From the NCBI RefSeq assembly GCF_053078305.1, contig NZ_CP166879.1: 64,000 bases of DNA. One strand, given 5' to 3'. Below, in pieces: positions 58,401-61,400 of this stretch (position 1 is its first letter; every line of letters begins with the position of its first letter). A program made the position numbers.

Positions 58401-61400
58401 GACCGGGGAAGTCAGAGAAATGCCGGTGACCACATATTCAGATGGCACCAGAACCATGACACCGGATGTGGGCTGGTCATATAACCCCGGTTCGGCGGCG
58501 TTCGGCACAGACCAGGCGCTGATCCGTAAACTGATCGAGGTGAAAAGCCCGGCGTTACGGGAAATGGTGGTTCAGGAGATGAACAACAGCCCGGAGCGGC
58601 AGCTGGCGTTCCGCATCTGGGCAAAAAACATCATGAAAACCCGGCGAGGCGGTAACGATATCCGCACGCTGGGCTTTATGACCGAAAGTATTGCGCAGGC
58701 GGTGGAAAGCCGGACGGGAACGCCACCGGCCCGCCTGCTGGCGATGAGCGGTAAAAATGTGCTCCATGCGGACAGCGTGAAACATCAGAATGACGGTATC
58801 GCCCTGACGCCGGAGGATTTCGCGCAGTTTCCCGCCATGCTGGCTGCCCCCGATGCCGTGCTGTGGGATCATGTCCATCAGAACTTGCTTTACATCACTG
58901 AAACCCGTGACGGAACGGCAAAGATTGCCGTCAATGCGCCTTATAGTGTGAAACGTCAGCCGGATAAGCTGGATGTGGTGATTAATGCCTATAGAGTGAG
59001 CAGGAATACTCTGATTGATGCTGTTCAGGGAGGTAAGATGGAGATCCTCGAAGGGAAATTGTAAGTCGGTGGTGGGGGTCGAACCCACATAAACATCCTT
59101 CGGGTGAAGATATCCCTCAGGTGCCGCTTTACCAGTTAAGAGTACACCGACCTGCTTTTATTTTAACCAGGTAGTTTCACGGAGGCAATATGTCATCCAT
59201 TGATGCCGCTGTCGTTGTTGACGTTACGCGTCTCCAGCGGGTCTTTGCCCGGCTTCAGTTTGTGGGTGGTGGAAAAGACCTGGCCCGCAGTGTGGCGGCG
59301 AGTCTTCTGTCATCGTCAGAAATGGCGTTTGAACAGGAAAAAGAGCCGGACGGCGAACGCTGGCATGACTGGTCAGATCCTTACCGCAAGTGGCGTACCC
59401 GTAAGGGATACATGCCCGGCAAAATCCTGACGCTGAACGGCGATCTGGCCCGACGCCTGACCACGGATTATGGAGATACCTGGGCGCTGATTGGATCAAA
59501 TGAGCCTTATGCGGCCATTCATCAGTGGGGTGGCCTGCCAGGTATGCCGCCTGGACCGGCGGCCATTGGTGCACGTCCGTATATGGGCTTTGATCAGGTG
59601 GCAGAGCAGGAGATCATGGACGAAATCAGAAAACGCTTTAAAAAGGCCACAGAAACGCCTTAATTGTTTAAGGTATGCAAATGCATTACCTTACCCCCTT
59701 CAGGCGCGTGTCGTGATTTTCTAACCTGTATTTAACGGGCTTTAAAATCTGCGTGAAGCGCCTTTGCATTTTTCCCTGAAAATACTTCCTGAAATCCCGC
59801 AAAACCCGCCCTGAAAATTCCCGGCTTATGCTGCCGGTATGAAGACAGAAAATCACCCAAAAGACGCAAATCGCCCCTCTGGTTTAGCCGTGCTTTCAGC
59901 TTCGCTGACTGCATCCGGCGACGGATGGTGTCAGTTACTGCCAGCAGGCAGGGTAAAGGCCCGTGACGGTCGCCCGGAAAAACCGGCTGAAGGCTGGCTG
60001 ATTAACGAATCCGCCTGCAACCGGATGAAAGCCGGGCTTTCCGCCCTGAATCAGCCGTTACTGATTGATTATGACCATCACTCCATGAATGCGCGGAAAA
60101 ACGGATTCAAGGCCATTGCCGCAGGTTGGGTTAAGCCGGAAAACATCGAATGGCGTGAGGGTCAGGGGATTTTCATTAAACCTGAATGGACGCCGCAGGC
60201 CCAAAAACATATTGATGACCGTGAATATGCCTATCTGTCTGCGTATATGCATTATTTCGCTGACACCGGGGAACCCTACCTGTTGCGCATGGCTTCCCTG
60301 ACGAATGATCCAGGTATTACGGGTATGAACCCTGTCGCAGCACTCAGTGCTGACGATCTCTATGTAGTTTCCCCTTCTCAGGAGCAACACCCCATGAATG
60401 AGCAATTACGCCAGTTGCTGACGGCGCTCGGTCTGACCGTGGCTGATGGTGACGAATTTACGCCGGAGCTGGGCACGGCAGCGCTGTCTGCCCTCACCGG
60501 GATCAAAACCCGTGCGGATGCACACGACAACCTGAAAACACAGGTCGCCTGTCTGTCGGCAGAGCTGGAAACTGCAAAAGGCACACCGGCTGGCGGCAGT
60601 ATTGATCTGACGAAATACGTGCCCGTTGAAACGTATAACGCCCTGCGTACCGAATACGTTGCGCTGTCGGCGCAGCACGGCAGCACCACGCTGGAGCAGT
60701 TGCTGGACAAGGCCGAGTCCGAAGGACGCATCTTCAAAAGTGAACGCGGCTATCTGGAACAACTGGGCGGGCAGATTGGCGTGGCGGCACTTTCTGCACA
60801 GCTTGACGCCCGACAGCCGGTTGCGGCCCTGACCGGTCTTCAGACCGACACCGTGACCGTGCCGGATAAAAAGACTGCCACCGCTGTGCTGTCGGCTGAA
60901 GATATCGCGGCCGCCAAACTGCTGGGTAAAACCGAAGCCGAGTTCCTGAAAATGAAAGAGGAAATGCAATAATGCCTACCCCGATTACACCGGCGATGAT
61001 CACCGCCCTGATGACGGGCTACCGTTCTGATTTTCAGGCCGGGATGTCCATGGCCCCGTCGCAGTACAAAAAAATTGCGATGACCGTGCCCTCCACATCG
61101 AAATCCAACACCTACGGCTGGCTGGGGCATGCGCCTCATTTTCGTGAGTGGATTGGTTCTCGTGTGATCCAGAAAATGAAAGCGCACGGTTATTCCATTG
61201 TAAACAAGACCTGGGAAGATACCGTCCCTGTTAATCGTGATGATTTTGAGGACGATAATCTCGGTATTTACTCGCCTTTATTTCAGGAGCTTGGTCGTGC
61301 CGCTGCTGTTCAGCCGGATGAGCTTGTATTTGCTGCTCTGCGTGATGGTCTGAAAAGTGCGTGTTACGACGGTCAGAACTTCTTTGATACCGAACACCCC

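What the first reader, a model, noticed from the sequence alone, without database searches (positions are those of the whole stretch)
59664..59838. Repeat-rich G-I intergenic region near the presumed genome centre: candidate strong gyrase site or late promoter
About 18.8 kb from the left end, the 175-bp spacer before the I gene holds three CCTGAAA(A)T direct repeats (59775, 59788, 59810) and an imperfect hairpin ggtatgcaaatgcattacc. Mu has its strong gyrase site between G and I at the genome centre, and I is headed by an activator-dependent late promoter, so either function is plausible.
Basis: partly seen in the sequence, partly recalled or inferred. Interest (0 to 1): 0.45.

Follow-up and report, generated by a model that had tools for sequence, protein, structure and literature searches.

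The report
Mu-type central gyrase site plus late promoter
The 175-bp gap between genes G and I of this Mu-like prophage is the already-described central control region of Mu-type phages: a strong gyrase site overlapping a transcription terminator, followed by the activator-dependent promoter of the head genes, so it is ordinary for this phage family.

Summary
The spacer is 59664-59838. It holds three CCTGAAA copies (59775, 59788, 59810) and an imperfect palindrome (59672-90), 18,767 bp from the prophage left end (40897).

**Left part (59664-~59773).** This is the homologue of the Mu strong gyrase site (SGS).
- It is collinear with Mu: 27/34 nt match at the same offset from the G stop, and 0/2000 shuffles reach that score.
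- It is identical to the first ~100 bp of the Sakai Sp18 gap. A review reports Sp18's SGS as the only heterologous site able to replace Mu's.
- It lies at 47-48% of prophage length in full-length relatives (Mu: 48.7%).
- It carries phased TT[AG]AA boxes that recur after G in about 20 Mu-like lineages.
- It also folds into a terminator-like hairpin with a T-rich tail.

**Right part (59789-59841).** This is a late promoter: a C-type activator box (TGAA-N6-CAAA), 16 nt, then -10 TATGCT, then 6 nt to the ATG. The lys promoter of the same phage has the same box and spacing.

**The repeats.** Repeat 2 is the left half of the activator box. Repeats 1 and 3 sit in the least conserved segments.

Verdict: already known, low interest. 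The one mildly new inference is a probably leaderless gene I mRNA.

The parts
59190..59663 (+). Gene G (virion morphogenesis), upstream flank of the gap
   Evidence: Pfam PF05069, E 9e-34. 54% identical to Mu G.
59669..59693 (.). Predicted gyrase cleavage core. The predicted 4-bp stagger is AATG at 59680-59683, by collinearity with the Mu stagger AATC at 17876-79.
   Evidence: The distance to the conserved arm block is the same as in Mu. The local best of the gyrase-motif proxy falls at 59680 (z 2.7-2.8). 78% of columns are invariant among 21 Sp18-like sequences. The exact cut position is inferred, not shown.
59705..59748 (.). SGS right arm. It comprises a 34-nt block homologous to Mu 17901-17934 (59705-59738) and phased A/T boxes: box 2 TCTAA 59720-24, box 3 TTTAA 59731-35, box 4 TTAAA 59742-46.
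   Evidence: 27/34 identical at an identical offset from the G stop; score 20 against shuffle mean 9.3, 0/2000 reaching it. The boxes recur with 20/21 + 11 nt spacing in about 20 Mu-like lineages. 94% of columns at 59701-59766 are invariant, more than in the G coding flank at 89%.
59702..59773 (+). Terminator-like RNA hairpin (base stem 59702-07 / 59758-63) followed by a T-rich tail TTGCATTTTT (59764-73). It is the probable end of the lys-to-G late transcript and overlaps the right arm.
   Evidence: RNA fold -23.7 kcal/mol, z -3.4. The homologous Mu hairpin is annotated as a terminator at 17908-53. It was not found by the simple terminator scan.
59775..59783 (+). CCTGAAAAT copy 1, upstream of the activator box. 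No conserved role.
   Evidence: The segment 59767-88 has only 45% invariant columns. In relatives this copy reads CCTGGAAGC or CCTGTCAGC.
59789..59810 (+). Late-activator (C-type) box CTGAAATCCCGCAAAACCCGCC, with bipartite TGAA(59790-93)-N6-CAAA(59800-03). It contains CCTGAAAT copy 2 as its left half.
   Evidence: The same 22-nt box stands before lys (51864-85) at the same 16-nt distance from a -10, and these are the only two sites in the phage. The box and spacing are conserved in other lineages. 86% of columns are invariant. It resembles MuC's TTAT-N5-6-ATAA consensus (PMC12867686).
59810..59818 (+). CCTGAAAAT copy 3, in the spacer between the activator box and the -10.
   Evidence: The spacer 59811-26 has 62% invariant columns. 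In relatives this copy reads CCCAAAAAT or CCCGAAAAA, which rules it out as the -10.
59827..59832 (+). Predicted -10 hexamer TATGCT of the gene I late promoter. No -35 is present.
   Evidence: Invariant in relatives (93% for 59827-41). Other lineages have CACACT, CACAAT, CAGAAT or TAAGCT at the same place. Mu PI has CAAACT. No sigma-70 -35/-10 pair is found in the gap.
59839..60972 (+). Gene I (protease/scaffold). The predicted transcription start is at or next to its ATG (59839), implying a leaderless or near-leaderless mRNA.
   Evidence: Pfam PF10123, E 2e-89; 52% identical to Mu I. The -10 lies 6-7 nt before the ATG in six lineages. The start site is inferred.

Best explanation
The gap is a compact three-part control region inherited from the common ancestor of Mu-like phages.

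**(1) Strong gyrase site, 59664-~59750.** Host gyrase binds and cleaves around 59680-83. The DNA to the right (toward I) wraps on a GyrA C-terminal domain, guided by phased A/T boxes. Highly processive supercoiling from this central site extrudes the prophage as a loop. That brings the two ends together for transpososome assembly and replicative transposition after induction.

**(2) Terminator.** The same DNA, transcribed from the lys promoter, forms a hairpin plus T-tail (59702-59773) that ends the lys-to-G late transcript.

**(3) Late promoter, 59789-59832.** The phage's single C-type (Mor/C family) activator (51442-51867) binds TGAA-N6-CAAA centred about 42-43 bp upstream of the start. It recruits sigma-70 RNA polymerase to the -35-less promoter with -10 TATGCT, so that transcription begins at or next to the ATG of I.

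**What is shown here:** the sequence features, their homology, their conservation and their position.
**What is taken from the literature:** the function of the Sp18 and Mu sites.
**What is inferred:** the cut position, termination, activator binding and the start site in this prophage.
For: **Context**
- The element is a Mu-like prophage with G and I flanking the gap. In Mu, the same gap holds the cut site, a terminator and PI.

**Gyrase site**
- The best local alignment of the window gap against the whole Mu genome is the Mu gap. It is 27/34 nt at the same offset, and 0/2000 shuffles reach its score.
- The gap is identical to Sakai Sp18 over its first 102 bp, 59664-59765. Review PMC10052514 states that the Sp18 SGS was the one heterologous site that promoted Mu replication.
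- Literature reports the right arm as essential and the left arm as dispensable (PMC10052514; PMC13284261). The conserved block lies in the right arm.
- Position: 47.1% of Sp18, 48.0% of JNE141411, 48.7% for Mu, and a median of 0.496 in 21 near-full-length viral contigs.
- Phased TT[AG]AA boxes (20/21 + 11 nt) follow G in lineages whose G is only 41-74% identical. With the cut placed as in Mu, the boxes fall on the AT-rich positions (about +20, +40, +51, +62) read from the published 133-bp consensus.
- A composition-normalised proxy of that motif ranks the true Mu cut 2nd of 36,585 positions. It gives z 2.7-2.9 at +17 in the Sp18-like lineage. Its 21-lineage mean profile peaks at +17/+18 after the G stop.
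- 94% of columns at 59701-66 are invariant.

**Terminator**
-.

**Promoter**
-. The activator is 39% identical to Mu C against 27% to Mor.
Against: - Nothing was measured on this DNA. The only functional evidence comes from Mu and Sp18, through a review; I could not read the primary paper or check which Sp18 fragment was tested.
- By the crude gyrase-motif proxy the site is only rank 122 of 45,944 in the prophage part of the window. Sites at 49086 and 54678 score higher.
- Box 1 of the arm is lost in this lineage.
- The A/T periodicity here is about 12 bp, not the 10.5-10.75 bp of Mu and the Topo-seq motif. In the 10.25-11.25 bp band the region is unremarkable.
- The cleavage core is poorly conserved between lineages.
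- Conservation of the arm block could be due to the overlapping terminator.
- The activator box was found at only two of the four expected late promoters.
- A leaderless mRNA for a highly expressed head operon is unusual.
Confidence: 0.8

Rival explanations
1. The conserved left part is only an intrinsic terminator for the lys-to-G transcript. Any resemblance to a gyrase site is a by-product, and this prophage has no functional strong gyrase site.
For: There is a stable hairpin with a T-rich tail. The homologous Mu hairpin is annotated as a terminator. The gyrase-motif proxy gives only moderate scores. The periodicity is off the gyrase value.
Against: The stem positions shift between lineages while the phased boxes keep their spacing. 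The boxes and the proxy peak stay in register with the Mu cut. The identical Sp18 sequence is reported to work as an SGS. The site is central in every lineage. In Mu the two functions coexist on the same DNA.
Confidence: 0.12
2. The three CCTGAAA(A)T direct repeats are themselves the functional unit: an array of iterated binding sites for a regulator.
For: Three copies lie within 44 bp and the motif is over-represented. They fall in the most strongly phased A/T stretch of the window.
Against: Copies 1 and 3 lie in the least conserved segments (45% and 62% invariant columns) and are mutated in relatives. Only copy 2 is conserved, as part of a longer box shared with the lys promoter.
Confidence: 0.06
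3. The gap is a neutral spacer, and its repeats and hairpins are chance features.
For: Short repeats and weak hairpins are common in A/T-rich spacers. The simple promoter and terminator scans found nothing in the gap on the + strand.
Against: Parts of the gap are more conserved than the flanking coding DNA. The match to Mu is collinear and significant. The architecture is family-wide.
Confidence: 0.02

Closest known systems
[quoted passage not shown] 2006)
   Same: Same gap, same fractional position (about 48%). A 34-nt right-arm block is 79% identical at the same offset from the G stop. It has phased A/T boxes 2 and 3 and an overlapping terminator hairpin.
   Different: Box 1 is absent and a box 4 is present. 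The core is an imperfect palindrome with AATG instead of AATC. The A/T phasing is about 12 bp rather than 10.5 bp. No cleavage data exist.
SGS of the Mu-like prophage Sp18 of E. coli O157:H7 Sakai (Oram and Pato 2004, as summarised in PMC10052514)
   Same: The sequence is identical from the G stop through 59765. The whole gap differs at 8 positions (7 substitutions and 1 indel), all from 59766 onward in the T-tail and promoter part. Gene order is the same and prophage size in relatives is the same (38.8-39.1 kb).
   Different: The differences lie in CCTGAAA copy 1, the T-tract and near the -10, and the first ~20 codons of I are unrelated. I could not verify which Sp18 fragment was tested.
Mu late promoter PI and the other C-dependent late promoters (Margolin, Rao and Howe 1989; Jiang and Howe 2008)
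   Same: It sits immediately upstream of I, has a -10 without a -35, and has a bipartite activator site centred about 43 bp upstream. A C-like activator gene stands just before lys.
   Different: The box sequence is TGAW-N6-YAAA rather than TTAT-N5-6-ATAA. The -10 is 6 nt from the ATG, whereas Mu has a leader of about 26 nt with a Shine-Dalgarno sequence. The phage has one Mor/C protein instead of two.
Plasmid strong gyrase sites (pSC101, pBR322) and the Topo-seq gyrase motif (Sutormin et al. 2019)
   Same: A degenerate 130-bp pattern of phased A/T positions flanks a 4-bp staggered cut.
   Different: Those sites do not replace the Mu SGS. The match here to the motif proxy is only moderate.

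Membership tests
Mu-type central strong gyrase site | Lies between G and I near the centre of a transposable Mu-like genome | tested here: met
   The gap is 18,767 bp from the left end. It lies at 47.1-48.0% of 38.8-39.1-kb full-length relatives, against 48.7% for Mu. The window itself ends before the right end.
Mu-type central strong gyrase site | Sequence homology to the Mu SGS, especially the right arm | tested here: met
   27/34 nt at the same offset, with 0/2000 shuffles reaching the score. It is the best hit of the gap in the whole Mu genome.
Mu-type central strong gyrase site | Phased anisotropic-bending (A/T) signals in the arm, in register with the cut | tested here: inconclusive
   Boxes 2-4 are in register with +40, +52 and +64. 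However, box 1 is lost, the period is about 12 bp, and the proxy z is only 2.7-2.8.
Mu-type central strong gyrase site | Strong quinolone-induced gyrase cleavage at one site | not testable with these tools
   This needs cleavage mapping. The position 59680-83 is predicted by homology only.
Mu-type central strong gyrase site | Required for, or able to restore, efficient replicative transposition | not testable with these tools
   This is reported for the Sp18 site, which is identical over the SGS part (PMC10052514). It was not tested for this copy.
C-dependent Mu late promoter (PI) | Recognisable -10 but no -35, directly upstream of a late operon | tested here: met
   TATGCT is at 59827-32 and is invariant in relatives. 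No sigma-70 pair is found in the gap.
C-dependent Mu late promoter (PI) | Bipartite activator site centred near -43.5, shared among the late promoters of the phage | tested here: met
   TGAA-N6-CAAA is centred at 59796.5. The same box and 16-nt spacing occur before lys, and the box is conserved in other lineages. Only 2 of the 4 expected promoters were found.
C-dependent Mu late promoter (PI) | Phage encodes a Mor/C-family activator | tested here: met
   The 51442-51867 product matches Pfam PF08765 (E 3e-32) and is 39% identical to Mu C.
C-dependent Mu late promoter (PI) | Transcription depends on the activator; mapped start site | not testable with these tools
   This needs 5' end mapping and reporter assays.

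The most novel reading that the evidence does not exclude
Two readings are not excluded.

(a) In the Sp18-type lineage and at least five other Mu-like lineages, the head-gene operon is transcribed as a leaderless mRNA. In these lineages the -10 of the late promoter sits a fixed 6-7 nt before the ATG of I.

(b) The phased TT[AG]AA box array (20/21 + 11 nt) is a family-wide signature of central gyrase sites that could be used to find them by sequence alone. The array persists in lineages whose G protein is only 41-44% identical.
Probability: 0.4. Interest if true: 0.3.

Novelty: already known. Interest (0 to 1): 0.2.

Why it matters
The result mainly confirms that this prophage keeps the central gyrase site that Mu-type transposable phages need to pair their ends. 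That suggests the prophage may still be able to replicate by transposition. It also gives a base-level map of a compact region where a DNA-topology signal, a terminator and an activator-dependent promoter overlap. No open question depends on it.

Tried and rejected
- **Unnormalised gyrase-motif proxy.** A plain match of A+T/G+C pattern to the published 133-bp consensus failed its control: it did not rank the Mu SGS in the top 12 in Mu because G+C content dominated. I replaced it with a composition-normalised version.
- **Published frequency matrix.** Table DS10 of PMC6379681 was cut from the stored supplement.
- **Primary SGS papers.** Oram and Pato 2004 and Oram et al. 2006 are not held.
- **blastn.** It saw no similarity to Mu inside the gap, only inside G. 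The match needed a dedicated local alignment.
- **10.5-bp periodicity.** It is not significant here.
- **GAAAAT (copy 3) as the -10.** Rejected because its last T is lost in relatives and its distance from the activator box does not fit.
- **Activator-box matrix.** It found no sites before the baseplate or com/mom genes.
- **Cleavage core.** It shows no strong conservation across lineages.
- **RNA searches.** Rfam found nothing in the gap, and ARAGORN found nothing in the region.
- **Minus-strand ORFs.** 59686-59856 and 59732-59914 are broken by 1-2-nt indels in relatives.
- **Lost calls.** A first guess at the Sakai coordinates was wrong.

Full report
**Observation**

The gap between G (59190-59663) and I (59839-60972) is 175 bp.
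- G matches Pfam PF05069 and is 54% identical to Mu G. I matches PF10123 and is 52% identical to Mu I.
- CCTGAAA(A)T occurs at 59775, 59788 and 59810. The palindrome ggtatgcaaatgcattacc is at 59672-59690.
- Matches of related prophages inserted elsewhere mostly begin at window 40897, a few 1-10 nt earlier. That places the left end there, and the gap starts 18,767 bp in.
- The features exceed chance. The 9-mer is over-represented (8 against 1.77 expected). The stretch 59710-59864 has the strongest 9-13-bp A+T/G+C periodicity of all 155-bp stretches in the 64-kb window (power 16.4, period 12).

**What Mu has at this place**

GenBank AF083977 annotates four features in the Mu G-I gap:
- a gyrase cut site at 17879/80;
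- a predicted terminator at 17908-53;
- the late promoter PI at 17977-18043;
- gene I, starting at 18056.

**Centrality**

The window ends before the prophage's right end, so I used full-length relatives.
- In strain JNE141411 the prophage interrupts csiR and is about 39.1 kb. The gap lies at 48.0%.
- In Sakai, Sp18 is 38,759 bp and the gap lies at 47.1%.
- Mu's cut is at 48.7%.
- In 21 near-full-length viral contigs the G stop lies at a median fraction of 0.496. Contig ends are not exact phage ends, so this figure is approximate.

**Homology of the left part to the SGS**

- The best local alignment between the window gap and the Mu gap is 27/34 nt (window 59705-59738, Mu 17901-17934). It begins 41 nt after the G stop in both.
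- Its score is 20, against a shuffle mean of 9.3 (sd 1.4), and 0 of 2000 shuffles reach it. It is also the best match of the gap anywhere in Mu.
- The block lies 25-58 bp right of the Mu cut, that is, in the right arm. The literature reports the right arm as essential and the left arm as dispensable (PMC10052514; PMC13284261).
- From the G stop through 59765 (102 bp) the gap is identical to Sp18.
- The review PMC10052514 states that the Sp18 SGS was the only heterologous site that promoted Mu replication. I could not read the primary paper.

**Family-wide architecture**

A scan of viral contigs with G proteins returned 71 loci.
- After the G stop, nearly all lineages (G 41-74% identical) carry TT[AG]AA boxes with fixed spacing: box 1, 20-21 nt, box 2, 11 nt, box 3, and sometimes a box 4 after 10-11 nt.
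- The window lineage has lost box 1. It keeps box 2 (TCTAA, 59720-24), box 3 (TTTAA, 59731-35) and box 4 (TTAAA, 59742-46).
- If the cut is placed as in Mu (stagger 17876-79, hence 59680-83 here), the boxes fall at about +40, +52 and +64. These match the AT-rich positions of the Topo-seq gyrase motif as read from its published 133-bp consensus.

**Gyrase-motif proxy**

The published matrix was not available. I therefore correlated the A+T/G+C pattern with the smoothed consensus.
- The unnormalised version failed its control on Mu.
- The normalised version ranks the true Mu cut 2nd of 36,585 positions, at the exact register.
- In the window, the local best in the left part of the gap is 59680 (z 2.8), but this is only rank 122 of 45,944 in the prophage part.
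- Averaged over 21 lineages, the profile peaks at +17/+18 after the G stop (mean z 1.76, about 4 sd of the profile).
- This is supporting evidence, not decisive.
- The A/T period here is about 12 bp, against 10.5 bp in Mu.
- The cleavage core itself is weakly conserved between lineages.

**Terminator**

- As RNA, 59702-59763 forms a long hairpin closed by AGGCGC/GCGCCU and followed by UUGCAUUUUU (-23.7 kcal/mol, z -3.4).
- The homologous Mu hairpin is the annotated terminator.
- Across lineages the terminator stems sit at different places relative to the boxes. The boxes are therefore not explained by the terminator alone.
- In this lineage the two cannot be separated by sequence.

**Promoter**

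- The four Mu late promoters align with their -10 at positions 42-47 of the annotated features and a CATAAC(C) half-site upstream.
- In the window, the lys and I upstream regions share a 22-nt box (CTGATATTCCGCAAAGCCTGCC at 51864; CTGAAATCCCGCAAAACCCGCC at 59789). Each is followed after 16 nt by TACGCT or TATGCT. No other site in the phage comes close.
- The box has the form TGAW-N6-YAAA, which resembles MuC's TTAT-N5-6-ATAA. It aligns with the Mu PI site TCAAATAGCATAACCCC (alignment by eye).
- Its centre (59796.5) lies 42-43 bp upstream of 59839-40, matching the -43.5 geometry given in PMC2582627.
- The phage has a single Mor/C protein. It is closer to C (39%) than to Mor (27%).
- Other lineages keep the same box, the same spacing and a -10-like hexamer (CACACT, CACAAT, CAGAAT, TAAGCT) 6-7 nt before the ATG of I. 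This predicts a leaderless or near-leaderless mRNA.
- Mu-type lineages instead have a leader of about 26 nt with a Shine-Dalgarno sequence.

**Footprint within the Sp18-like family**

Fraction of invariant columns among 21 distinct sequences:

| Segment | Coordinates | Invariant columns |
|---|---|---|
| G 3' end | 59464-59663 | 89% |
| Core | 59664-59700 | 78% |
| Arm / terminator | 59701-59766 | 94% |
| T-tract + copy 1 | 59767-59788 | 45% |
| Activator box | 59789-59810 | 86% |
| Spacer with copy 3 | 59811-59826 | 62% |
| -10 to ATG | 59827-59841 | 93% |
| I 5' end | 59842-60038 | 60% |

Copy 2 is thus functional as part of the box. Copies 1 and 3 are not conserved.

**Verdict**

The region is the known Mu-type central control region: a gyrase site with an overlapping terminator, followed by the late promoter PI. 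Novelty is low, because the SGS part is identical to the Sp18 site already tested. The leaderless-promoter inference and the family-wide box signature are modest additions that need experimental confirmation.

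Noticed in passing
window 59064-59151 (- strand), with 59188-59160 (- strand): A tRNA-like element lies in the F-G gap. It matches Rfam tRNA at 30 bits (gathering score 29), with good acceptor, D and T arms but 26 nt where the anticodon region should have 11. NCBI's annotation calls it tRNA-OTHER in relatives, and ARAGORN finds nothing. A sigma-70-like promoter (TTGCCT-17-TAAAAT) ends 9 nt upstream of it. Mu has no F-G gap.
   Followed up: partly
window 51442-51867: The prophage encodes only one Mor/C-family activator, which is closer to Mu C. Mu has both Mor and C. The middle and late stages may therefore be merged, or controlled differently.
   Followed up: partly
window 40209-40901 and 40897: The prophage left end (TG at 40897) interrupts a TerC-family membrane protein gene. 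Relatives sit in other genes (csiR, sorM, a PilZ-domain gene), as expected for random transposition.
   Followed up: partly
window 59839-59900: The first ~20 codons of I (MKTENHPKDANRPSGLAVLS) are unrelated to those of Sp18-type relatives (MKTKNTPKLAYAILNAISLS), although the gap upstream is nearly identical. This marks a mosaic junction right at the start of I.
   Followed up: no
window 59713-59722 and 59847-59856: A perfect 10-nt inverted repeat (GTGATTTTCT / AGAAAATCAC) links box 2 of the arm with codons 3-6 of I. The second arm is absent from most relatives, so it is probably chance.
   Followed up: partly
window about 49086 and about 54678: These are the highest scores of the crude gyrase-motif proxy in the prophage part (z 4.1-5.0), higher than the G-I gap. 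The proxy is rough and this was not examined further.
   Followed up: no
loci L035-L075, 15-80 nt after the G stop: TT[AG]AA boxes with constant 20/21 + 11 nt spacing are conserved downstream of G in Mu-like phages whose G protein is only 41-74% identical. This could serve as a sequence signature of central gyrase sites.
   Followed up: partly
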